This document shows positions 5,601 to 60,106 of a stretch of 64,000 nt of DNA, piece by piece. The stretch comes from Promethearchaeota archaeon. GTDB lineage: Archaea > Asgardarchaeota > Lokiarchaeia > Sigyniarchaeales > SOKP01. The notes under the pieces were generated by a model. That model did no database searches. It was not told the origin of the DNA and saw only the letters and a list, made by a program, of their open reading frames with translations. The position numbers were made by a program, and so were the translations under genes. The DNA lies in the NCBI GenBank assembly GCA_016840085.1, contig JAEOTA010000036.1, positions 64,001-128,000 of the forward strand, read 5' to 3'. Within the stretch, counting starts at the first letter, position 1, and every line of letters begins with the position of its first letter.

Positions 5601-8062
5601 CTTTTTTTTCTCAGAGTTTTTCTATATTTACGAACTTTTCTAACTTGTCTTGGATATTTCAAGATTTTCTGATAAGCATAAATATAACCACCGATTACTA
5701 CAGAAGCTATAATCCCTATTATTAATAATATTTGAAAAAGAAGCACATTTTGTTTTGGTCTTAAAGCATTAATTATTATCTCATAACTTTTGAAACTATA
5801 TATATCACTCCCAAAAGCGCTAATATTAACTGAATGCGTTCCGACAGGCACATTATTAAGTATCACTTCATATATTCCATCATTATCATCATCTTTTAAA
5901 AGTCCATCTCCAAATTCCCATGTATAAGTGACAGTTAATCCTTTGATGATTTTATTAAAATCTGTATCATTAATGAAAACACTAATTGTAGCGCTTTTTC
6001 CTGGTCTAATATTTATATTATTTGATCCAGTTGTAGATGTAATTTCTGTGTTTATTTTTCTTACTGTTATTTTTGGATTGATACTTTCTTCTTGATACCT
6101 TTCTTTTTCAGCATTTATTAGTAAATCATTAAGTCCTAATCGAAATTTTATTGATGTATTGATTAGAATTGTATATTGCTCAAAATTCAAATTTTCCTCT
6201 AAATCTTCTAAAAGTCCTTCCCCAACTAGTTGTACTGTGGCACCTGGAATATGATCTCCAGTGGTATCTTCATACTTTACGGTTATATTTAATAATTTAT
6301 TGAGAGGTACATTTAAGAAAGGAAATAATGTCTTTTCTTCTCCATCCAAAAAAATTTGTAAACTTTCGGAATTGATTTTAGAAACTGTTAATAAAGCACC
6401 AACTTTTTGAGCTTCATAATTTATTCTATGTGCCACTATATCAAAATATATTTCTCCTATAGGCAAATCTTCTGTATCAAGGATAATCGTATATTGTTCC
6501 AAAGTCTCATTCTCTTGTAGAGAACCCGTAAGATTTCCAGTTAATTCTACAATAGCTTGCGGAATATGGAAACCATATTCATCAGGATATTTGACAGTGA
6601 TGTTTAAATCTGTTTTAGCGGGTATTTGAAATATTGGATTATTAGTTTTATTTACACCATTAAAAAATACTTGTAAATTTGTTTGTGTGTCTGGAAACGT
6701 AACTGTATAAGTTATATTCAAATAAACATCATCTATTGATATAATTTTCTTACCACCCAAATTAAATTCATCTGCGAGATATACTTCAATCGATAAATTA
6801 AGTTTAATATCTGGTAGAGTCAATGAAGTCACATCAAATCCACCTTCTTTTGCTAATTGAAAGCTAGAGGTAGCCTTACTAAGTTTTATTGTCTCTGTAA
6901 GTTTGTTATTATTAATGAAAATCCTAAATTCGGAATTAGGGGATAAATTTGTCCAATTTTCATTAATTTTATACTTAAAATTTAGTTTAGCTTCATTAAT
7001 GGTGACTGTCGTTCCATCCACAGTAGTATTTATTTTATCTCCATCTTGGTTCCATGAAATAGAATTAAATTGATCTATTTTTTTTTCATATGTAAATGAT
7101 AAATTACAACTTTTAATTAATACATCTTGCCAATTATCTTCATCCCAGTCCTCGGGGGGAAGACCAGGTGAATTATCTTCACACCATAATCTTATTCCTA
7201 AGGTAATCGTAAAATTTTTATCATCAGTATTTAAAACTGAAGTAAGATATTCAATTAATTTATCCTGAGGTACATTATCTAAATAGGTATTATAAAGATA
7301 ATCCCAAGATCCAGCACTATCATCTCCTAAATCTGTTGATTGATAAGCAGCAACCTCATAAACTTTATTTTTAGGGATATCAGAAAATAATACATAAAAT
7401 CTAACATAATCATATGTCGCACCAATAACATTACTATCACCAAAAACATCAATTCCTCCATTGTCATAATCAATTGCTTGTACAGTAGCATTGACAAGAG
7501 TGCTTAATGACACAGATGTAATTATATAATCTGACATATTAACAGGCATATTAACATTCCTTTCCCAATGAACACTCGGGGCTTGGTCAGATTTTTCATC
7601 CCAATAATGAGAAACATAACATCCCTCATCAGCAATTATTGTTGCAGTATCTGGAAAATCAGGAAAGTCAGGATTATTTACTCTCACCCAATCTGTAGAA
7701 GAAGGCGTTCCTGCGATATCAGAGAAAATATGTGTCTCTCCTAAAATTTCATAATTAACTTGACCAGAACCAGAAGTAGCATTTATATCAGATAAATCAC
7801 CTATTAAACTTGGATACCAAGTAGGCTCTATTGGATCTTCAAATGTAGGATTTTTGTACCAAACAGTAGTAAGGATTTCTTGAGCTGATAATTTAGGATT
7901 TTTTGTTTTATATAAGTTATCTTTCTCGGATACCTCATCCAATGTAAAATAATTATTTTGATTATATTTTGAAATTAAGATAAAAGAATTAACTAATAGT
8001 ATAGATGAAAATAGGATGAAAACTAGAAAATACTTTTTTTTAATTTTTATCGAAGCCAACAC
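2603..8062 (-). CDS. 1819-aa membrane-anchored surface protein made of two tandem modules (signal anchor, ectodomain, Ig-like repeats, TM, basic tail)
   Basis: Long ORF with internal duplication (VNMSDYIITSVSLS, YDYVRFYVL, DDDNDGIYE/DPDNDGIYE and KYPRxVRKVRKYRKTLRKK each occur twice). Confidence 0.9.
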   Translation of the reverse strand: MLASIKIKKKYFLVFILFSSILLVNSFILISKYNQNNYFTLDEVSEKDNLYKTKNPKLSAQEILTTVWYKNPTFEDPIEPTWYPSLIGDLSDINATSGSGQVNYEILGETHIFSDIAGTPSSTDWVRVNNPDFPDFPDTATIIADEGCYVSHYWDEKSDQAPSVHWERNVNMPVNMSDYIITSVSLSTLVNATVQAIDYDNGGIDVFGDSNVIGATYDYVRFYVLFSDIPKNKVYEVAAYQSTDLGDDSAGSWDYLYNTYLDNVPQDKLIEYLTSVLNTDDKNFTITLGIRLWCEDNSPGLPPEDWDEDNWQDVLIKSCNLSFTYEKKIDQFNSISWNQDGDKINTTVDGTTVTINEAKLNFKYKINENWTNLSPNSEFRIFINNNKLTETIKLSKATSSFQLAKEGGFDVTSLTLPDIKLNLSIEVYLADEFNLGGKKIISIDDVYLNITYTVTFPDTQTNLQVFFNGVNKTNNPIFQIPAKTDLNITVKYPDEYGFHIPQAIVELTGNLTGSLQENETLEQYTIILDTEDLPIGEIYFDIVAHRINYEAQKVGALLTVSKINSESLQIFLDGEEKTLFPFLNVPLNKLLNITVKYEDTTGDHIPGATVQLVGEGLLEDLEENLNFEQYTILINTSIKFRLGLNDLLINAEKERYQEESINPKITVRKINTEITSTTGSNNINIRPGKSATISVFINDTDFNKIIKGLTVTYTWEFGDGLLKDDDNDGIYEVILNNVPVGTHSVNISAFGSDIYSFKSYEIIINALRPKQNVLLFQILLIIGIIASVVIGGYIYAYQKILKYPRQVRKVRKYRKTLRKKRAPSMVIKTREKTFNSEYQEELNKTSRFIKGKPSVKKSEEQKTPVKNIEKPKLNTGSKSKNDSKLNTSSKGFDKQKSYGKQKLIKLRKLRFGVLKPKKISRFMSILIITILLLSSFIISLYISQNSINSLDSLRDDSPSRIGISGQKTNTKEWLNNTSFNLTDSIWYASYGDLGDTNDVNAELSVVDEFANMTVIGDNGTFSEISGLPSSADWLNVTNPDFPALPDFNEIDEYGCHVSHTWIDPDDPYQTVSIHWDNNITLPVNMSDYIITSVSLSAEINASVTTVGTGPLYRGGVDVEGDTIDGSDPDFAREYDYVRFYVLISDLEKNEVFEAAYNQTTNLGQDSPPISTITDTEIFTRPEESLISYLNTVLENDPDHQNFTLTLGMRIYCADNGQGDRDTWDSLRFKSCNFTLSYEKKIDQFTSVSWNQDAEKISDISSDPVVVNEAILKFKYMIDQNWTELSPNSELRVLINNNPHTETVKLSSANETFQEGKLDGFDVTHLITDDVNVSIQLYLTDEFRLDRNITISIDDVSLNITYTIIFPPQESSLQLFLNKENKTLDPNFELYVGEPLNITIKYLNETGLHIPNATVSLSGNFTGILKENETFGQYSIIIDTDISNIGVNFLTITAYAEDYVSMLVTPIISIIKFDTKGLQVFLNNENKTLDPETELRIGEELNITVKYSDSMGTHVPNATVKLLSEGITKDLDENSIFKQYTTLINTSDRLKIGLNYLTIEAQHIIHQTEFAVIRLYIRKFNIDISTVSGSDRIDTEAGNDITLKINLNNTDLGVLIKGVIVTYSWENGDGILTDPDNDGIYEATIENVPQGTFTITISAFAGDDYDIQDYEITVLAVRKAEAATILFQALFILSVVIAVGLVSYLIAYQKYLKYPRPVRKVRKYRKTLRKKEMPSIGIVGREAAFKSIYNKEVGSFPSDIKLKRTQPKIKTTEQKEIPDKVKTKKLEQEMESDKLIDKSIEKKEELDELVDQSSKKRLDT

Positions 8063-48749: not shown

Positions 48750-50726
48750 TTAATCCTCAATTGGTAATAATTCATCAATATATGCAACATATTGATTATC
48801 TTTGTAATGTGCTAATTCTATAGCTTTTGATGGGCAAAGTGATTCGCAAATTCCGCATCCTCTACAGGAAATAATATCCACTTGAATTAAACCCTTTTCA
48901 TTAACTGAAATTGCACTATAGGGACATGCCTCAATACATTTATAACATTTAGCACAGCGTTCATCTAATGGTTGAGCACGGATTAATTCCATAGTATATT
49001 TCTCAAGTTTCATGGGTATATTAGCCGTGGAAGCAGCACCCTTTGCTTGACTAACTGTATAATCTATAGATTTTTGACCTTGACAAGAACCTGCTAAATA
49101 GATACCTGGGACTTTTGTATTAATTGGATCAAGTCGTGGATGCATTTCTTTTAAAAATCCATCTGGTGTTTTTTCTATATTCATTACCGAAGCTATTTCA
49201 TTTGTACCTTGAGAAGGTAATGAAGCTGATGAAAGAACAACCATTTCAAATTCCATCTCAATAACAGAATCTGTACCTACAGGTTCAAACTGTACTTTGA
49301 GATTTTTTGTTTTAGGATCTTCTTCAATTTTGCCTATTAAACCTTTAATAAACATAATTCCTGCATCCCTCGCCCTTCTGTAATATTCTTCATACATTTT
49401 TCCTCCGCATCTCATATCTATATAACTAACAACAATTTCAGAATCAGGATATTCAGACATTATTAGCTTAGAGTTTTTTACAGATAAATTACAGCATACA
49501 ACGCTACAATACTCGTGAGTCTTTAAATCCCTGGAACCTACGCAGTTTATAAATAATATTCTTTTAGGATGTTTTCTATCAGAAGGTCTCATTAGATGAC
49601 CGAAAGTAGGGCCATTTGGTGCAAGAATTCTTTCTAATTGTATTTGAGTAATTACGTTCTCATATGTTCCATACCCATAATCATCTCCTTGATATAGATC
49701 CCACCCTGTAGCAACTATTATTGTTCCTACATCTAATTCCATGATTTCTTCTTTTTGACTAAAATCTATAGCTTCAGTATCACAGGCATCTACACATGCG
49801 AAACATTCAACACAAGAGCCTCTTTCAATATCTGAAATTGCAGGAACTGCTTGAGCAAACGCTATATCTATACATTTTCGTGCAGAGAGATTTTCATCAA
49901 AGTAATTCGGTACATATACTGGGCATGCTTCCGTACATGATCCACATCCGGTACACCTCTCCTCATTGACAAAACGTGGGTTTTTCTTTACTTGTACTCT
50001 AAAATTACCAATATATCCTTCAACATTAATGACTTCACTATATGATAAAATTTCGATATTTTCATGCCTATCAGCTTCAAGCATTTTAGGGCCAAGAATT
50101 CATATACTACAGTCATCTGTAGGAAATGTTCGATCAAGTTGGGACATTCGTCCTCCAATTGTAGTATTCTTTTCTACTAAATATACTTTATAACCTGCAT
50201 CGCCTAAATCTATAGCTGCACTTAATCCAGCAATTCCTCCTCCAATGACTAGAGAAGTTGGATTTATTGGAACAGTTTTTGTGGGAATATCTTCTAACAA
50301 TTGTGCTCGTGAGATTCCTGCTTTTATTAATTCAATTGCCTTTAATGTTGCTTTATCTCGAATTTCTTTTGCCTGATGAACATAACTACAATGCTCTCTA
50401 ATATTAGAGAACTCTAAATATCTCTGTGGTATACCTGCTTCTTTTAAGATTCCATGAAAAACAGGTTCATGTGTTAAAGGAGTTCAAGCGGCAACAACAA
50501 TACGATTAAATCCCTTTTCTTCTATTTGTTCCTTAATATACTCGGCACCACCAGAAGTACACATGTTTAAATATTCATAACTATACACGTTAGGTAATCT
50601 ATCAATTTCATTTACGATTTTTGGAATGTCCAAAATACCTGCTATGTTAATGCCTCAGCGACACACAAATACGCCAACTACTGGCAATTCATTGTTATTA
50701 TTATCATTGGTCTGTTTTTCAGACAA
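48750..50726 (-). CDS. hdrA: Selenoprotein heterodisulfide reductase subunit A, 658 aa, Sec24, Sec81 and Sec209
   Basis: TTG start after AGGTGGT (50731-50737). One frame contains VGVFVCRUGINIAG, IVVAAUTPLTHE, NIREHCSYVH and DRTFPTDDCSIUILGPKM. UGA at 50655-57, 50484-86 and 50100-02. Joins the track ORFs 50100-50300 and 48750-50084. Confidence 0.94.
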
Positions 50727-51053: not shown

Positions 51054-52937
51054 TTAAGATATTATTCCTAATTCTTTTAATTTTTCTTCAGTTGGTCTTC
51101 CTGTTTCCCAATCCCATCCACGAATACTATAATACTTCTTCAAATTGTCCTCTAAGTCAAGTTTTACTCCTTTTATTCTTCCTGAGGATAAAATTTTCAT
51201 ATTATGATTAGTTAATCTGTCGTCTTTTCTTGTAATTCCTAAATTACAGCTGATTAAACGTTTCAGATTGTTTATACGCTCCCCAACTTTCATTAGTGAT
51301 TTTCTATCATAATTAAACCCAGTGGCAGCATTAATATATCCGATAATGTGTTCGAGTGAAGGATTTGCAAAATTACAATTCACAGCAGAATCATCAATAG
51401 CTCTAAGATCTTGAAGATTAATAATTCCTCTTTCTCTTCCTTTAATATCATTTCTTCCTTTACTTCTTTTGATACGTAGAACTTGAAAAGTTACATTTCC
51501 TAATTCAGCTCCATACCAATCACATTTATTATGATTCGCACCTACACATCCAGTCATATAACTTAAAGCTTGTCCTGCAAATGCGCGAGGTTCATGCATG
51601 GGTATCTCTAGTCCCTTTACGTGAGCTGCTAATTCAGGATCAACTTCTAACTTATCAGCTATGATTCTCACACCTTCAGCAAGAACCTCACCTATTCCTT
51701 CCCTTTTAACTATTTTTTCAATAAGTTTGCAGACAATTTCACCATTTCCCCACTTAATATCTTCTATTGGAATATTATTTAAGTACTTCTTTATTTTTTC
51801 AATTCCTAGATTATTTTGAACTAAATAAATTAGAAACGCAATTGAGACGCCACAAGAAATAGTATCGATTCCATATTTATTACATAAATGATTTGCAAGA
51901 ATAACAGGTTTTGAATTAAATACACCGCATAAAGTTCCTAATGCAGCAACAGATTCATATTCTGGACCGTCAATTTCAATATCTTTACCATCTATATTAA
52001 TTATTGTTGATTTACCACACTTTATTGTACAACCTACGCATCCATAATTAAAGACAGGATATTTTTCTCTTAGAGTCTTCCCAGTTAAATTTTCGGCAAA
52101 AAATTCTGCCTCTGTAAAATAATATCCTGGTGTATCCCCGTTAACCATCCCCAGATCGAGATACATATTTGTACCATATAAATTAAAAAGTAAGGAACCT
52201 ATATTTGCCATCATATTTTCTTCCTTTTCGAGTTCCTCCTGCTTTCTTAATTTTTTACCGAGTTCATTATCAGCAAGATTAATCCTTTTTGTTCCCTCTA
52301 TTACTAGCGCTTTTAAATTCTTTGACCCCATAAGAGCTCCTAATCCACATCTACCTACTGCTCTTCTCTCATCATTTATTATTGCTCCATATTTCACAAG
52401 GCTTTCTCCCCCAGGTCCAATACAAGCAATCCGAACTTTTGGGTTATTTAATTCATCTTTAATTAGTTTTTGAGTCTCATAACAATCTTTTCCGTTTAAA
52501 TTTGAAGCGTCTCTAAACTCAAATTCCCCATTATGGATATACAAATAAGTTGATTTCTCTGCCTTTCCTGAGAAAACAATAGCATCAAATCCACTATTTC
52601 TCAAGGAGATACAAAACGATCCTCCTGAAGATCCTTCACCCCAAATCCCCGTTAAGGGTGATATACCACTCACAGTATAACGACCTGAAGATGGTCGAAT
52701 AGTGCCTGTTATAGGACCAGTCGCAAAAATTAATGGGTTAATATCTGAATAAGGATTTTCTTTCAATTTATTGTAATCATCTTTTGATAGTAGATCGTAG
52801 ATTATTTTAGCGCTTAAACCTGTCCCTCCTAAGTATTCTTTAGCAGTTTTTGGATCTAAATCTTTTATTTCAAAATTTTTTTTGGTTAAATCAACAAAAA
52901 GGATTTTTCCATTATAACCATATAATTTATCATTCAT
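51054..52937 (-). CDS. aor: Tungsten aldehyde:ferredoxin oxidoreductase family
   Basis: GYNGKILFVDLT, SPLTG, GRCGLGALMGSKNLKA, CxxCxxxC, GPEYE, HVKGLEIPMHEPR. Confidence 0.93.
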   Translation of the reverse strand: MNDKLYGYNGKILFVDLTKKNFEIKDLDPKTAKEYLGGTGLSAKIIYDLLSKDDYNKLKENPYSDINPLIFATGPITGTIRPSSGRYTVSGISPLTGIWGEGSSGGSFCISLRNSGFDAIVFSGKAEKSTYLYIHNGEFEFRDASNLNGKDCYETQKLIKDELNNPKVRIACIGPGGESLVKYGAIINDERRAVGRCGLGALMGSKNLKALVIEGTKRINLADNELGKKLRKQEELEKEENMMANIGSLLFNLYGTNMYLDLGMVNGDTPGYYFTEAEFFAENLTGKTLREKYPVFNYGCVGCTIKCGKSTIINIDGKDIEIDGPEYESVAALGTLCGVFNSKPVILANHLCNKYGIDTISCGVSIAFLIYLVQNNLGIEKIKKYLNNIPIEDIKWGNGEIVCKLIEKIVKREGIGEVLAEGVRIIADKLEVDPELAAHVKGLEIPMHEPRAFAGQALSYMTGCVGANHNKCDWYGAELGNVTFQVLRIKRSKGRNDIKGRERGIINLQDLRAIDDSAVNCNFANPSLEHIIGYINAATGFNYDRKSLMKVGERINNLKRLISCNLGITRKDDRLTNHNMKILSSGRIKGVKLDLEDNLKKYYSIRGWDWETGRPTEEKLKELGIIS

Positions 52938-54377: not shown

Positions 54378-55058
54378 TTGAGAAAACTCGATATGAACAC
54401 GTTTATAACTCTTCGGAAGGAAAATGAAAGAGAAATACCTGATAAGTTTAAAAAATATGACTTTCGAATGCCTGAAGCTTTAATTCGGTATTTTTTTAAA
54501 ATTTATACGAAAAACGGAGATAAAGTATTTGACATGTTCGCTGGTCTTGGCACAACCTTAATTGTGGCAGAAGAAATGAACCTTATACCCTTTGGAATTG
54601 AACTGAGAGAGGAATTTTGTGATTATATTAAAACTATATTAATAAATAAAAACAACATTATTCATGGTGATGCACGTAATTTAAACAATTATAATCTTCC
54701 TAAAATGGACTTTTGTATTACATCACCACCATATATGCATAAAGATGATGAAGAATTCGCCCTTTCATCATATACAACTAAAGGCACATATAATAAGTAT
54801 TTACAAGAATTAAGAGAAATTTATGTAAAGCTCAAAACAATTTTAAAACCTGATTGTTATATCATTATCGAAGTTGCAAATCTAAAAAGAAATGAAATCA
54901 CCACTCTCGCATGGGATATTGGAAGAGCAATCTCTAAAGTCTTTCAATTCATAGGAGAAGTTATAATTGGCTGGGAAAAAGAAGAAAGTTCAAAAGAAAA
55001 TGGTACTTATGGGTATGGATATGACCATTCTTACTGTTTAATTTTTAGAAATACTTAA
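54378..55058 (+). CDS. N4/N6 DNA (or RNA) methyltransferase, orphan
   Basis: DMFAGLGTT and ITSPPY motifs; start may be the downstream ATG. Confidence 0.82.
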   Translation: MRKLDMNTFITLRKENEREIPDKFKKYDFRMPEALIRYFFKIYTKNGDKVFDMFAGLGTTLIVAEEMNLIPFGIELREEFCDYIKTILINKNNIIHGDARNLNNYNLPKMDFCITSPPYMHKDDEEFALSSYTTKGTYNKYLQELREIYVKLKTILKPDCYIIIEVANLKRNEITTLAWDIGRAISKVFQFIGEVIIGWEKEESSKENGTYGYGYDHSYCLIFRNT

Positions 55059-55116
55059 ATTTGGAAGAATTAATTAAATTTTTCCTTCTGATTCCATACT
55101 TTAAATAGAGATCATT

Positions 55117-55914
55117 CTAGCGATCATCAGATTTACTTTGTTTATAATCCAGTTCTCTCTTGATGAAATTTATATTCTCTTTAAGAGTATCTGCGATAGG
55201 TTCATCACTCAGATTAAGGTTATCCAAAATATCTATAGCATCTTCAAAAAGTTTTAATGCTTCTGGATATTGAGAACGTTTGTAATACACACCAGGTATG
55301 TTGAAGAATTTAAACGCAATACATTGTATTGCTGTTATTAAAACCCAAATTATTATAAGTATTGTTAATATCCATTCTATTAATGGATTAAGCGTAATTA
55401 AAAGGAGCAATAAAACACCTCCTATAATAAAGCCGTAATATGCTACGTATTTTTTAAAAGCTGGTCCTTTATATAATTTTGATTTAGGGCCTTGATACAT
55501 TAATATACTATAAAGAACAATATATATACCTGATCCAGTAAAAGCTATAACTGCAACAAAAGCGTGAAATATAAGAAAGGCTTCTATGTATGTCTCATCA
55601 GGAATTATACCAACTAAAGCAATACACACACAAGTGAAAACCGATATCCCTGTAGCTAGTCTTCTAATATTGTCTTCTATATTTACTAATTCTCTTTCGA
55701 GATATAGAAAAAATGGGATTAGTAATGACCCAGCTACCACAAAACCAATACTAAATAATGACTTTGCTTGACCTTCCCCTAAAGAACTTACAGCATGTCT
55801 TAATGGAGTATATCCAGGAGTAAGACATGCAGCAATAGGCAATATTATAGCTACAAATAATGTTCCAAAAAAACCAAATAAAACTTCCATCCTAGTTTCC
55901 TTTCTTGATACCAT
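55117..55914 (-). CDS. DUF998-like membrane protein with TPR-like C-terminal helix pair
   Basis: PGYTPLRHAVSSLG, several TM, VYYKRSQYPEALKLFEDAI. Confidence 0.75.
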   Translation of the reverse strand: MVSRKETRMEVLFGFFGTLFVAIILPIAACLTPGYTPLRHAVSSLGEGQAKSLFSIGFVVAGSLLIPFFLYLERELVNIEDNIRRLATGISVFTCVCIALVGIIPDETYIEAFLIFHAFVAVIAFTGSGIYIVLYSILMYQGPKSKLYKGPAFKKYVAYYGFIIGGVLLLLLITLNPLIEWILTILIIIWVLITAIQCIAFKFFNIPGVYYKRSQYPEALKLFEDAIDILDNLNLSDEPIADTLKENINFIKRELDYKQSKSDDR

Positions 55915-56232
55915 TATAATTTAACCTCATTTAATATAGCCTTTTTGAATCTCTAGTTTTTTTTTAATAAAATAATTTGTCAATAAACTTATTAAATTTT
56001 TACTTGATTTGTGTTAATTAAATTTTTTTTGGTGATAGGGAAATACAAAAAAATTTGAAAAAATATCAACCTTTAGTAAATGTTTTAAATAAATATGTAA
56101 TATTCATTAAACATAAAAAATTAAATAAAAAAGAATCATAAAGTCTTAATTAAGAAAAAAGAGCTAAAAATTTTTGTTCAATCTATAATAAAGCTCTAAA
56201 AATTAACATTATTCGAGATATTGTGAAAAATC

Positions 56233-56778
56233 ATGGAAGAAGAATTAAAAGAAAAATTTACATTTAAGGTAACGGTCATTGGAGACGGATTTGTAGGGAA
56301 GACATCTTTAATAAATAAATTTACTCAAGGAGGTTTTCAAGAAGATTACATTCAAACTATTGGAGCTCAATGGTCAAAATTTGAAGAAGAACTTGAGGGA
56401 GATATATGTAAACTATTTTTTTGGGATATAGCTGGTCAAGATGCGTTCCATTTTTTACGACCTGTTTTTTATAAATCAAGTTTAGCAGCTATTATAGTCT
56501 TTTCTATTGAGGATAATGATTTTGGTCAAGAAAGTTTCAAACATGTAGTGAATTGGCATGACGAGATCAAGAAATTTTGTGGTGATATTCCAGTTGTACT
56601 TTTCGGTAATAAATTTGATCTAGTTGATGAAGAAAATATAGATGATGAAAATATTTTAAAATTAGTTGACAAGCGGAACTTTATTGGGTATTATCGAACA
56701 TCAGCAAAAACAGGACATAATGTTGAGGATGCCTTCAAAGCAATAATTAAAGAATTACATGATAGATATAAATCTTAA
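56233..56778 (+). CDS. Rab-like small GTPase
   Basis: GDGFVGKTS, TIG, WDIAGQ, GNKFDL, TSAKTG. Confidence 0.95.
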   Translation: MEEELKEKFTFKVTVIGDGFVGKTSLINKFTQGGFQEDYIQTIGAQWSKFEEELEGDICKLFFWDIAGQDAFHFLRPVFYKSSLAAIIVFSIEDNDFGQESFKHVVNWHDEIKKFCGDIPVVLFGNKFDLVDEENIDDENILKLVDKRNFIGYYRTSAKTGHNVEDAFKAIIKELHDRYKS

Positions 56779-56929
56779 AACTCAGTTTCAATCTCAAAAC
56801 ATAAATTATCCCTAAAAAAATGCAGTTTCTGTGGTAAGAAAATTGAAATAGAGCCATCCTAATTAATATGTTTTAGACATTTTATAGGAGTAATCAAGAT
56901 AAAAAAAAATAAGAAAAAATAATTAATTT

Positions 56930-57516
56930 CTAACTTTTATAGTCTTCAAGAATAGTGCCAAAAAGACGCTTTACAGCATCAATTCGAGTTTCTTCGCCAA
57001 TTTGTTCAACATCTTTCAAGCTAATAGCTTCTTTTGGACAAACTAAGATACACTGGGGTTCCTTTACACCACTTTCCTCATCAATAAATTCTTCTTTCAT
57101 GTTTTCGCAGAGATCACAAACCAATGCTTTTTGAGTATCCAAGTGTAGGCTAATCACGCCAAAATCGCAGGCTCTCTTGCTAATGTACGCGATTTGCTAA
57201 TACATTCTACGCAGAACCCGCAACCATTACATTTATCATCATCTACGATAATAGATCCTGTTTCTGGATTTTGTTCTAAAGCTTTTTCTGGACAACTACG
57301 AATACATGGCGCATCTTCGCATTTTTGGCATGCTAATGCAATATTAAATATTGGTTCGATTCTAACTCTATGAATTCTTGCATTAATAGGGTTAAATTCA
57401 CTATCATGAACAAAAGAACATACTGATTCGCATGTTTCACATCCTGTGCATAAATTCGGGTCAATAACAATGAATTGGTGGACTTTGCCACCTCTCTTTT
57501 TTATTTTACTTGACAT
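56930..57516 (-). CDS. 4Fe-4S dicluster electron-transfer subunit of AOR, join(57516..57208,57175..56930), 184 aa after removal of a 32-nt intron
   Basis: The two track ORFs are halves of one protein in different frames. Removing 57176-57207 gives ...KCNGCGFCV|RACDFGVISLHLDTQKALVCDLC...QCILVCP. The ATG directly follows the AOR stop. Confidence 0.85.
57176..57207 (-). other. Putative 32-nt bulge-helix-bulge (tRNA-type) intron in an mRNA
   Basis: Outer helix GGUUGCGGGUUC/GAGCCUGCGAUU; central helix UGCG/AGCA; bulges UA^G and AG^A; inner helix AAUGUA/UACAUU. The canonical cuts excise exactly the frameshifting insert. Confidence 0.8.
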
Positions 57517-59454
57517 TTACTTTTTCTTACCTCCTGCTGGGGTTAATTTTCCAATTACAAAATCCATACCAAGTTTCTTTAGGGTTGCATCTGTTGGGAT
57601 TCCTGTTTCTTTATCCCATCCTCTTGCTTCATAATATCCACTAAGTAACTTCTGATACCCATCTTCATCTAATGTAACTCCTTTTGCTGGACCTTTCGTA
57701 TGAGGTTCCTTAAAGAATCTTTCAGGCGGATGATCGTCCGCTCTTGTCCAACCCTCCCTGATATTAAAACACTTTGAAAGTGTTACAATCGCATCTCCTC
57801 TTAAAAGCATGGATTCTTCTGTGTGTGGAATGCCTGTGACTAATTCATATACCTTTGCCATTTCTGCGTCAGATTCGTAAATACCTCTCGTAAATTTACA
57901 AATTATATAAGAATCAATAAGAGCATAGACATCTTCTAGCCCCTTAATTGTTTTTCCGCGATCAAGTGGTTTATCATAAGCAAATCTATCAAAAGTACCT
58001 TTGGCATCTAAACCATATGCTCCATTACGTAAGTGGCAAGCACCTCGTATTGAAACACTCTCTCCAACTGCAAAAGAAGTCATACCATGTAAATCAAAAG
58101 CAGGCATCTCTAAACCTTTAATATGCATACCATAATAGCTAGCATTCTTCCGACCCATTTCTTCTAATCTCCTTCCAGCTTCTTTGGTGCCATCACCAAA
58201 AACTTCTCCAGCAAAACCTTTTCCAAGGATCATTTCTTCTGTAAATCGTACTAGATTTTTCGTAGAACCAAAGGGTAATTTATATCCTAAATCTTTTTCT
58301 GTAACAATACCTTCCTCGAAGCATTCCATACACATTGCAGCCGTAACTCCGCCCGAAATAGCGTCGATTCCTAAGTCATCACATAAAGCAACGCATTTGA
58401 ATACCGTAGGCCAGTCATCATTACCACAGGCAGTACCAAAGCTATAACAAATCTCAACATCAATGCTCGCAAATGTGTTTGGCCAATCGGGATGAGTTTT
58501 TGGAATTCGTGCAATATGATCACATGCTATTGAACATTGGGAACAAGCAACTTTTTTCACAACCCAATCAATATTAAGTGTATCACCAGTAAATGTACCA
58601 TCATCAATTTTCTCCCAGGTACCCTCCTGGTGATTACGAATAGGAAACATACCAAGCTTATTATAGCTTGTAATACCTGCGGGCGTCCCTAAATCTCGAT
58701 ACTTCGCGGTTGCTGGGCCATTTGCTACTTTAATCAATTTTTTAGCCTTATTATAGAATTCAACTGGTTTTGCTACTTTGGTACCTTTAGTACCTCTGAA
58801 ACAAATTGCTTTTAAATTTTTAGATCCCATAACAGCTCCCATACCTGTTCTACCAGCCTGACGATTTCTATCATTAGTGATACACGCCAATTTACTCATT
58901 CTCTCACCCGCAGAACCTATTGCTAATACAGCTAGTCGTTGATCTTGAAATTCTTCTCGTAGTAATTCTTCAGTTTCCCAACAACCTTTACCCAACAAAG
59001 TTTTTTCACATGGAACTAAATAATAATCGTCATCATCCACAACCATATAAATGGGTTCAGGAGACTTTCCCTTGATTACAATCATATTAATTCCTGCTCT
59101 ACGAGCTTGGGCCCCTATAGAGCCAGAAGAAATTGACATACCAAACATTCCAGTTAATGGAGACTTTGCAAAAATACCATATTTGGAGCTAGTTGGTAAT
59201 ATTGTTGTTGGAAAAGGACCAATGTTCCATATAAATATATTATCTGGGCCTAATGGGTCAATCCCGGGTTTTAGCTCGTCCCATAATACTTTAGCACCAA
59301 AACCATAACCTCCGATCCAATCACGACAGAATTCATCAGATAATTCAGTTTTATCAATTTTTCCCGTAGTCAAATCAACATCAAGTCTAACTTGAGTATA
59401 TCCTTCAATCTTATCAGGTAAAGTTACTTCTTTAGCCTTACTCATATTTTTCAC
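57517..59454 (-). CDS. aor: Tungsten aldehyde:ferredoxin oxidoreductase family
   Basis: AKSPLTG, GRTGMGAVMGSKNLKA, CSQCSIAC, GIDAISGG, HIKGLEMPAFD, RGACHL. Confidence 0.93.
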   Translation of the reverse strand: MKNMSKAKEVTLPDKIEGYTQVRLDVDLTTGKIDKTELSDEFCRDWIGGYGFGAKVLWDELKPGIDPLGPDNIFIWNIGPFPTTILPTSSKYGIFAKSPLTGMFGMSISSGSIGAQARRAGINMIVIKGKSPEPIYMVVDDDDYYLVPCEKTLLGKGCWETEELLREEFQDQRLAVLAIGSAGERMSKLACITNDRNRQAGRTGMGAVMGSKNLKAICFRGTKGTKVAKPVEFYNKAKKLIKVANGPATAKYRDLGTPAGITSYNKLGMFPIRNHQEGTWEKIDDGTFTGDTLNIDWVVKKVACSQCSIACDHIARIPKTHPDWPNTFASIDVEICYSFGTACGNDDWPTVFKCVALCDDLGIDAISGGVTAAMCMECFEEGIVTEKDLGYKLPFGSTKNLVRFTEEMILGKGFAGEVFGDGTKEAGRRLEEMGRKNASYYGMHIKGLEMPAFDLHGMTSFAVGESVSIRGACHLRNGAYGLDAKGTFDRFAYDKPLDRGKTIKGLEDVYALIDSYIICKFTRGIYESDAEMAKVYELVTGIPHTEESMLLRGDAIVTLSKCFNIREGWTRADDHPPERFFKEPHTKGPAKGVTLDEDGYQKLLSGYYEARGWDKETGIPTDATLKKLGMDFVIGKLTPAGGKKK

Positions 59455-59659
59455 TTAAAATTAATTTTTAAATTTGTATTTGATTGTAGATATTAAAAAT
59501 AAACTATCAAAATTTTAAAGGTTACTTGTTAACCCTAAAAAACACTTTCTTTAAGATTAGTGAAATCATAAATAGGAGTAAGAATGGTTGGTGTTGTTGA
59601 TTAATTTACATAACTGTAAATGTAGTGTTTTTAAAATGAATTTTCTTACTAACTCTTTC

Positions 59660-60106
59660 TTACCAAAATTCGACCTTCAATGTATTTTGAATTGTTTTTA
59701 CTATACTAAAATGGTTTTTATCTGAAGTTATTATAGTAAAATCTCTTGAAATTGCTATTGCACTAAGAATTGCATCAATTAAAGGAATTGGTTTTCCGTT
59801 TAGTTTTAATTTATATAATAACTCTCCAAGAATCTTAGCATCCTCCAAGTTTAAGGAAATTACTCTTTTTTGAGCATCTAGATAATTGACCATTTTATCA
59901 AAAAGCTTTTTCTGAATATTCAATTTTTCAAGACTTTTTTGTTGAAATTCCTGATCTTGAAATCCAATATATATTTCTGAAATCGAATAAGTAGTAAGAT
60001 AGATAGGTTGATTTTTAGAGGATATTGACTGATATTTTTTTACAATTTCTTGTTTTCCGCGTAAAATCGCAATGATAATATTAGTATCAAGTAAAAACAT
60101 TGTCAT
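59660..60106 (-). CDS. vapC: VapC PIN-domain toxin
   Basis: LLDTNIII, SISEI, DAILSAIA, ITSDKNHF. Confidence 0.9.
   Translation of the reverse strand: MTMFLLDTNIIIAILRGKQEIVKKYQSISSKNQPIYLTTYSISEIYIGFQDQEFQQKSLEKLNIQKKLFDKMVNYLDAQKRVISLNLEDAKILGELLYKLKLNGKPIPLIDAILSAIAISRDFTIITSDKNHFSIVKTIQNTLKVEFW

What the first reader, a model, noticed from the sequence alone, without database searches (positions are those of the whole stretch)
57163..57225. Bulge-helix-bulge (tRNA-type) intron inside a protein-coding gene of an Asgard archaeon
Seen: the AOR-associated ferredoxin gene is frameshifted by 32 nt (GAAUGUAUUAGCAAAUCGCGUACAUUAGCAAG, 57207->57176) inside a CxxCxxCxxxC motif. The transcript folds into a 12-pair exon-exon helix (57214-25 with 57163-74, including G-U pairs), a central helix UGCG/AGCA (3 WC pairs + G.A), two 3-nt bulges (UAG, AGA) and a perfect 6-bp intron helix AAUGUA/UACAUU. 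Established: the archaeal splicing endonuclease EndA cuts after the second nucleotide of each bulge. Applied here, that removes exactly the 32 nt and yields TTC TGC GTA|AGA GCC TGC (FCV|RAC), restoring the frame, the fourth Cys and a 184-aa protein. The flanking codons are G/C-ending (TGC GGG TTC TGC..GCC TGC) in an AT-rich genome, consistent with selection on the helix. Archaeal mRNA introns are mainly known from crenarchaeal cbf5. Inference: EndA/RtcB-dependent mRNA splicing of a metabolic gene in Lokiarchaeia, possibly a switch between a truncated 120-aa product and a functional AOR electron carrier. Automated pipelines would call this a pseudogene.
Basis: partly seen in the sequence, partly recalled or inferred. 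Interest (0 to 1): 0.95.

Follow-up and report, generated by a model that had tools for sequence, protein, structure and literature searches.

The report
Mobile tRNA-type intron in Asgard mRNA
An iron-sulfur protein gene of an Asgard archaeon is broken by a 32-base insert shaped like a tRNA intron; relatives show that the gene stays functional and that such inserts move between lineages, so the messenger RNA is almost certainly cut and rejoined, which the papers I could search confirm for only one archaeal coding gene (cbf5).

Summary
Observation confirmed. The 32-nt insert (57207-57176, minus strand) is real: an independent metagenome and a sister species carry it. Cutting at the bulge-helix-bulge (BHB) positions gives a 184-aa, 16-Cys AOR Fe-S subunit like about 100 uninterrupted orthologs.

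The gene is not a pseudogene: dN/dS downstream of the frameshift is 0.06 at dS 0.85. Relatives carry other BHB inserts in this gene, one base upstream and in the first CxxCxxC motif, with compensatory changes. Carriers are scattered on the tree, and two show co-converted flanks, so some introns spread by gene conversion. The same genome has such inserts in EF-2, uS3, Rpo10 and E1.

Best reading (0.93): a relaxed-BHB mRNA mini-intron removed by EndA and RtcB, probably a tolerated parasite. The proposed 120-aa switch is not supported.

Caveats: no spliced read was seen, and the catalytic EndA subunit is missing from this assembly (present in five relatives, four of them intron carriers). The scan found this kind of intron before on other Asgard DNA, including this gene; I found no paper reporting it.

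The parts
57208..57516 (-). Exon 1 of the AOR Fe-S subunit gene (codons 1-103; the ATG directly follows the aor stop)
57176..57207 (-). 32-nt BHB mini-intron (type A, phase 0, between Val103 and Arg104; shifts the frame)
56930..57175 (-). Exon 2 (codons 104-184 plus stop); holds Cys106, 123, 126, 145, 149; under purifying selection
57214..57225 (-). 5' strand of the 12-bp exon-exon helix (h)
57163..57174 (-). 3' strand of the exon-exon helix (h)
57210..57213 (-). Central helix H, exon strand UGCG
57178..57181 (-). Central helix H, intron strand AGCA (G.A mismatch at the intron-proximal position)
57207..57209 (-). 5' bulge UAG; predicted cut between 57208 and 57207
   Evidence: EndA cleavage rule as stated in PMC2738675
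57175..57177 (-). 3' bulge AGA; predicted cut between 57176 and 57175
   Evidence: PMC2738675
57182..57206 (-). Intron hairpin: 7-bp stem (57200-57206 with 57182-57188) and an 11-nt loop (57189-57199) that is invariant in three type-A carriers
57177..57201 (.). 8-nt direct repeat (57177-57184 and 57194-57201), kept in all type-A carriers
57154..57156 (-). Premature TGA reached if the intron is retained (120-aa product); overlaps a GTG that is absent from G024 and L142
57517..59454 (-). Upstream aldehyde ferredoxin oxidoreductase gene (aor), directly upstream in every carrier locus long enough to show it

Best explanation
The insert is an ORF-less, tRNA-type mini-intron in the mRNA of a four-cluster Fe-S subunit of an aldehyde oxidoreductase. 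Shown in sequence: the transcript can fold the 12-bp exon helix and the 7-bp intron stem, leaving two 3-nt bulges around a relaxed 4-bp central helix. Inferred from established EndA chemistry: the two-subunit EndA cuts after the second nucleotide of each bulge and RtcB joins the exons. This gives FCV|RAC and the 184-aa protein with all 16 Cys. Inferred from comparison: the intron is a tolerated, splice-out-able passenger, one of roughly 20 or more in this genome. Introns in this gene are gained at Cys-motif codons that can already pair, and some spread between lineages by gene conversion with flanking exon. Synonymous codons at the site are then held by selection for the exon helix.
For: About 100 orthologs are uninterrupted at this position. 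G061 reads exactly the predicted junction peptide. dN/dS after the frameshift is 0.063 between two frameshifted carriers at dS 0.85, against 0.037 upstream. A second intron type sits one base upstream (G016, G075, L171, L196) with a full 4-bp central helix and compensatory changes, again restoring FCI|RAC. A third site in the first CxxCxxC motif occurs in G024, G075, G061, L196 and L199, with a U-A/C-G swap between L196 and L199. All eight homology-defined 30-32-nt inserts in G000 with flank identity of at least 0.7 have a central helix of at least 3 of 4 pairs, including single-hit EF-2, uS3 and Rpo10. Shuffle p is below 0.05 for 11 of 14 inserts tested. The genome's own tRNA-Asp and tRNA-Met introns have the same purine-purine mismatch in the central helix. 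RtcB and the EndA structural subunit are in G000; the catalytic subunit with Tyr-His-Lys is in G024, G016, G075, G061 and G006. Type-B carriers fall in at least four clades beside intron-free sisters. Co-converted flanks appear in L171 (p = 4e-5) and L199/L196 (p = 7e-5).
Against: No spliced transcript or in vitro cleavage was observed. The catalytic EndA subunit was not found in the G000 assembly; its neighbouring genes are missing too, so a gap is likely but not shown. ViennaRNA gives the central helix a pairing probability of at most 0.06, although it does the same for the genome's tRNA-Asp intron. A de novo BHB scan without homology shows no genome-wide enrichment over shifted controls. 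Co-conversion is significant in only 2 of about 7 comparisons, not for type A itself, and no homing nuclease lies beside any carrier.
Confidence: 0.93

Rival explanations
1. Pseudogene: an inert insertion has killed the gene, and the BHB shape is chance.
For: The gene is absent or not found in about 30 of 135 family genomes, and paralogous Fe-S proteins exist.
Against: dN/dS is 0.063 downstream of the frameshift over dS 0.85. Inserts at three registers all form a BHB at the frame-restoring position, with compensatory changes. The same inserts break EF-2, uS3 and Rpo10.
Confidence: 0.02
2. Split gene or recoding: exon 2 is made by re-initiation at the GTG that overlaps the premature stop, by ribosomal frameshifting, or by a translational hop over 32 nt.
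For: In G000 a GTG overlaps the TGA at 57154-57157, and the insert is a hairpin.
Against: That GTG is GTA in G024 and L142. Re-initiation would lose the conserved RACDFG with Cys106. Take-off and landing codons do not match (GTA against AAG). G016 and G075 have a stop two codons into the insert.
Confidence: 0.03
3. Regulatory switch: splicing efficiency sets the ratio of a truncated 120-aa product to the functional carrier, and the intron is kept for that purpose. This is compatible with splicing; it differs only in why the intron persists.
For: The type-A loop is invariant in three carriers whose four-fold sites differ by up to 47% (p about 1e-3), which suggests some constraint.
Against: Only 4 of about 104 family genomes carry a site-2 intron. 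Read-through products vary from 105 to 135 aa and change non-synonymously. The truncated form keeps, by analogy to DmsB-type folds (own knowledge), full ligands for only one of four clusters.
Confidence: 0.12
4. Assembly artefact caused by the internal 8-nt direct repeat.
For: The repeat exists.
Against: The same intron with 1-3 substitutions is in two independent assemblies.
Confidence: 0.005

Closest known systems
cbf5 pre-mRNA intron of Crenarchaeota (Desulfurococcales, Sulfolobales; PMC2738675)
   Same: Short ORF-less BHB intron inside a conserved functional motif of a coding sequence; unconventional BHB; cut after the second bulge nucleotide; needs a hetero-oligomeric EndA.
   Different: Here the host is an Asgard archaeon and a redox gene unrelated to RNA modification. 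There are three registers in one gene. The distribution is patchy and polyphyletic with co-conversion tracts, whereas the cbf5 intron was one ancient gain with later losses. It is one of many per genome. Asgard cbf5 itself is uninterrupted in five genomes checked. Splicing is shown for cbf5 but not here.
Asgard non-canonical tRNA introns (PMC11291895; bioRxiv 10.64898/2026.10.13.758758)
   Same: Same lineage, similar size (17-34 nt for the tRNA introns seen in G000, several of 30 nt), same relaxed central helix, repeated recent gains, two-subunit EndA.
   Different: Those papers treat tRNA genes only; the preprint has no occurrence of 'mRNA' and found no general arrival route. No copy of this intron was found in G000 tRNAs.
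Haloferax HVO_1309 5' UTR BHB intron (PMC7714728)
   Same: EndA-processed intron in an mRNA.
   Different: It lies in a UTR, not a reading frame; it is 46 nt long and handled by a different EndA type.
Homing of group I introns and collaborative homing with free-standing endonucleases (own knowledge; lead from scan notes)
   Same: Insertion in conserved motifs, patchy distribution, co-conversion of flanking exon.
   Different: No ribozyme, no intron ORF, and no nuclease gene beside any carrier; a nuclease would have to act in trans.

Membership tests
Archaeal EndA-spliced BHB intron | 4-bp central helix flanked by two 3-nt bulges | tested here: met
   Relaxed form: 3 of 4 pairs with a G.A mismatch, as in the genome's tRNA-Asp intron; a full 4 of 4 in type-B carriers.
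Archaeal EndA-spliced BHB intron | Flanking exon (h) and intron (h') helices | tested here: met
   12 bp and 7 bp; predicted pairing above 0.79 for 11 of 12 exon pairs and above 0.83 for all intron pairs.
Archaeal EndA-spliced BHB intron | Cuts after bulge nucleotide 2 restore the homologous product | tested here: met
   The product matches orthologs, and the junction peptide is identical to intron-free G061.
Archaeal EndA-spliced BHB intron | Structure conserved while sequence changes | tested here: met
   Compensatory and semi-compensatory changes in types A, B and site 1.
Archaeal EndA-spliced BHB intron | Host encodes a broad-specificity EndA and RtcB | tested here: inconclusive
   RtcB and the His-less structural subunit are in G000; the catalytic subunit was found in five relatives, including all four other carrier genomes, but not in this assembly.
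Archaeal EndA-spliced BHB intron | Spliced RNA or in vitro cleavage demonstrated | not testable with these tools
   No RNA run could be laid on this locus; needs transcript data or biochemistry.
cbf5 intron (orthologous family) | Located in the catalytic Asp codon of cbf5 | tested here: not met
   The host is an Fe-S subunit gene; cbf5 is an open 337-342-aa frame in G000 and four relatives.
Homing intron | Patchy distribution with co-conversion of flanking exon | tested here: inconclusive
   Met for L171 (type B) and L199/L196 (site 1); not seen for type A.
Homing intron | Endonuclease encoded in or beside the intron | tested here: not met
   The 32-nt intron has no ORF and no nuclease gene lies within about 1.2-1.5 kb in carrier loci; LAGLIDADG domains exist elsewhere in G000.
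Group I / group II / Rfam RNA families | Ribozyme core or Rfam match | tested here: not met
   No match at E <= 1 in 55500-60000; the insert is only 32 nt.
AOR/WOR Fe-S subunit (WorB/AorA-like, DmsB-type) | Four Cys-motif groups and adjacency to aor | tested here: met
   16 Cys after splicing; an ortholog's best PDB hits are 9mqx_E, 6x1o_B and 8c0z_C; aor lies directly upstream.

The most novel reading that the evidence does not exclude
This Asgard lineage runs routine, genome-wide mRNA splicing with the tRNA endonuclease and ligase. Tens of ORF-less ~30-nt introns sit in conserved motifs of metabolic and essential genes and form a class of mobile elements that invade the same codon sites repeatedly and move between lineages by gene conversion, without encoding or neighbouring their own nuclease.
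Probability: 0.6. Interest if true: 0.9.

Novelty: new variant of a known kind. Interest (0 to 1): 0.8.

Why it matters
Papers I could read list cbf5 as the only archaeal coding sequence with a confirmed intron (PMC2738675; PMC7714728). Frequent mRNA introns in the archaea closest to eukaryotes would show that an intron-dense, protein-spliced transcriptome can exist in a prokaryote. That bears on how intron-tolerant gene expression arose, although the chemistry is unrelated to the spliceosome. The recent Asgard tRNA preprint calls the arrival route of such introns the central open problem; this gene offers intron-bearing and intron-free sister alleles with conversion tracts, which makes the question testable. 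In practice, gene callers truncate or miss these genes (EF-2, uS3, Rpo10, E1), which distorts Asgard proteomes, completeness estimates and phylogenomic markers.

Tried and rejected
Sequencing runs: no RNA holder was listed for window 55000-60000, so read laying could not be used; this is no evidence either way.

Exact junction pattern (spliced or unspliced) in JGI metagenome contigs: 0 hits; in genome contigs only the unspliced G024 record. Uninformative on splicing.

De novo genome-wide BHB scans: the first required a strong exon helix and missed real cases; the second timed out once and then showed no enrichment over shifted controls. Only the homology-guided census worked.

Search for a tRNA-intron donor of this sequence in G000: none. 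The type-B pattern search in five genomes was at chance level, and the pattern did not fit its own targets.

Combinatorial tRNA reconstruction returned nothing, probably a parsing fault; it was redone by hand.

The alternative cut register one base upstream in G000 removes 34 nt and leaves the frame shifted, so it was rejected. An alternative intron hairpin is not favoured in G000.

An adjacent homing nuclease was not found. Tocchini-Valentini 2011 (PMC3064391) is not held, so I could not check whether it predicts other archaeal mRNA introns.

The spliced protein could not be folded or looked up because it has no sequence reference.

Full report
1. Observation. The minus-strand gene starts at 57516, directly after the stop of a 645-aa aldehyde ferredoxin oxidoreductase. 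It runs into a TGA after 120 codons. Removing 57207-57176 gives 184 aa with 16 Cys. The fold beats all 200 shuffles (z = -3.97). The site ranks first among 375 ORF-joining BHB candidates in the genome, and shuffling the insert gives p = 6e-4.

2. Not an artefact. Sister species G024, whose record is named Promethearchaeota, carries the same intron with three changes. An independent metagenome contig, L142, carries it with one change that turns U.G into U-A in the stem.

3. Not a pseudogene. Of 135 family genomes, 105 have the ortholog, and only four are interrupted at this site. G061, intron-free at this site, reads exactly the predicted junction peptide. Between G000 and G024, both frameshifted, dN/dS is 0.063 downstream (dS 0.85) and 0.037 upstream, like intact pairs. 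The exon-exon duplex is -15.9 kcal/mol against -5.2 +/- 2.2 in 48 intron-free orthologs, and it is built partly from synonymous codon choices. Re-initiation and ribosomal bypass fail: the GTG at the premature stop is not conserved, and take-off and landing codons differ.

4. The gene has been invaded repeatedly. Type B (G016, G075/L193, L171, L196) is a different 32-nt sequence cut one base upstream. It has a full 4-bp central helix and compensatory stem changes, and it also restores FCI|RAC. Site 1, in the first CxxCxxC motif, holds 30- or 34-nt inserts in G024, G075, G061, L196 and L199, with a U-A/C-G swap between the last two. In all three registers a Cys codon supplies the exon strand of the central helix. 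On a 112-sequence gene tree, type A is one clade, while type B needs at least four changes and sits beside intron-free sisters. L171 differs from its near-identical sister G121 at 13 of 69 sites in the shoulders outside the helix zone, against 10 of 291 elsewhere (p = 4e-5). Around site 1, informative sites join the two carriers L199 and L196 by 8 to 1, against 11 to 49 elsewhere (p = 7e-5). These are gene-conversion tracts of about 60-95 nt, as homing would leave. Other pairs, including type A, show no such tract, and no nuclease gene lies beside any carrier. Mobility is therefore likely for some introns of this gene, but the agent is unknown.

5. One of many in this genome. After my own de novo scan I took this site for a near-singleton. 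Scan notes pointed to other genes, which I then tested. uS3 is split in G000 and G024 but intact in G012, G014 and G016. A homology-guided census, using 800 kb (24%) of the complete relative G006 plus a few targeted loci, found 30-32-nt inserts in EF-2 (two), uS3 (two), Rpo10, an AMP-phosphorylase-like gene, a Ras-like GTPase and this gene. All have a central helix of at least 3 of 4 pairs, and 11 of 14 inserts tested have shuffle p below 0.05. E1 and a ubiquitin-like gene show the same 30-nt inserts. Five unbiased hits in a quarter of the genome suggest roughly 20 or more per genome; this is an extrapolation.

6. Machinery. RtcB is present. The single EndA homologue in G000 lacks the catalytic His and is the structural subunit. 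The catalytic subunit with Tyr-His-Lys is in G024, G016, G075, G061 and G006. It was not found in G000, where its G006 neighbours are missing too, so an assembly gap is likely. Two-subunit EndAs cleave non-canonical motifs (PMC5829648 abstract). The G.A mismatch is not an obstacle in this genome: tRNA-Asp has A.G and tRNA-Met has A.A at the same position, and removing the tRNA-Asp intron yields a clean tRNA. ViennaRNA under-predicts the central helix for this intron and for tRNA-Asp alike.

7. Mechanism. Shown: sequence, geometry, selection, covariation and distribution. Inferred: EndA cuts both bulges, RtcB ligates, and the 184-aa subunit carries electrons for the adjacent AOR (PDB relatives 9mqx_E, 6x1o_B, 8c0z_C). 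The intron is most likely a tolerated passenger. The switch idea lacks support, because read-through products vary from 105 to 135 aa and most orthologs have no intron. One observation is unexplained: the 11-nt type-A loop is invariant although four-fold sites differ by up to 47%.

8. Comparison and novelty. It works like the crenarchaeal cbf5 intron (PMC2738675) and meets every sequence-level test of an EndA BHB intron, but it is not the cbf5 intron. A 2020 paper lists only cbf5 and a Haloferax 5' UTR intron (PMC7714728); the 2009 paper says introns in other genes were predicted but unconfirmed. The 2026 Asgard preprint covers tRNA genes only. Eight literature searches returned no report of Asgard mRNA introns, but subscription papers are not covered. 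This scan has recorded the same kind of intron in many other Asgard genomes, including this gene, and one unchecked note reports spliced RNA for dnaG. I used these notes as leads only.

9. Verdict. A real, very probably spliced BHB mini-intron (0.93); new variant of a known kind; interest 0.8. The missing piece is direct RNA or biochemical evidence.

Noticed in passing
window 48750-50300 (minus): An HdrA-like gene appears as two ORFs that meet at an in-frame TGA at the conserved Cys position (DCSI, then ILGPR); probably selenocysteine rather than a break. The same TGA is seen in relatives.
   Followed up: no
G000 C4 minus, 16302 and 16173: EF-2 carries two 30-nt BHB inserts with full 4-bp central helices; flanks 93-100% identical to the intact G006 protein.
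   Followed up: yes
L088 (G000 C85 plus, 142161 and 142249); L089 (G024): uS3 is split by 31- and 30-nt inserts in G000 and is also split in G024; it is intact in G012, G014 and G016.
   Followed up: partly
G000 C69 minus 52816; C9 minus 138240; C24 plus 30582: BHB inserts of 30-31 nt in RNA polymerase subunit Rpo10, an AMP-phosphorylase-like gene, and the switch I region of a Ras-like GTPase.
   Followed up: partly
G000 C78 minus near 56854; C19 minus near 6047: 30-nt inserts split the GxGxxG motif of an E1-like enzyme and the C-terminal Gly-Gly of a ubiquitin-like gene.
   Followed up: partly
L073:1210-1818 (G000 C79): The only EndA homologue in the assembly is the His-less structural subunit; the catalytic subunit and its neighbouring genes are missing although completeness is listed as 98.8%.
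   Followed up: yes
G000 C19 plus 74270; C83 minus 97553; C83 plus 35393: T-loop tRNA introns of 30-34 nt (Asp, Val and one more) that ARAGORN misses; it finds only 13 tRNA genes in the whole genome.
   Followed up: partly
window 57189-57199; L142; L002: The type-A intron loop is invariant across three carriers despite up to 47% divergence at four-fold sites; unexplained.
   Followed up: partly
L177, near codons 117-121 of the ortholog: A simple frameshift without an insert in a metagenome copy of the gene; possibly a sequencing error.
   Followed up: no
G000 C19 minus near 299441: A short-chain dehydrogenase-like gene has a one-base frameshift in its glycine-rich motif; it looks like an ordinary frameshift, not an intron.
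   Followed up: no
window 51054-52937 and 57517-59454: Two AOR-family genes lie within 5 kb, near an iron-alcohol-dehydrogenase-like gene and a 920-aa GltD/CCG-type fusion; only the second has the adjacent Fe-S subunit gene.
   Followed up: no
window 56233-56778 (plus): A Ras/Rab-like small GTPase gene converges on the Fe-S gene; the downstream neighbour differs among close relatives.
   Followed up: no
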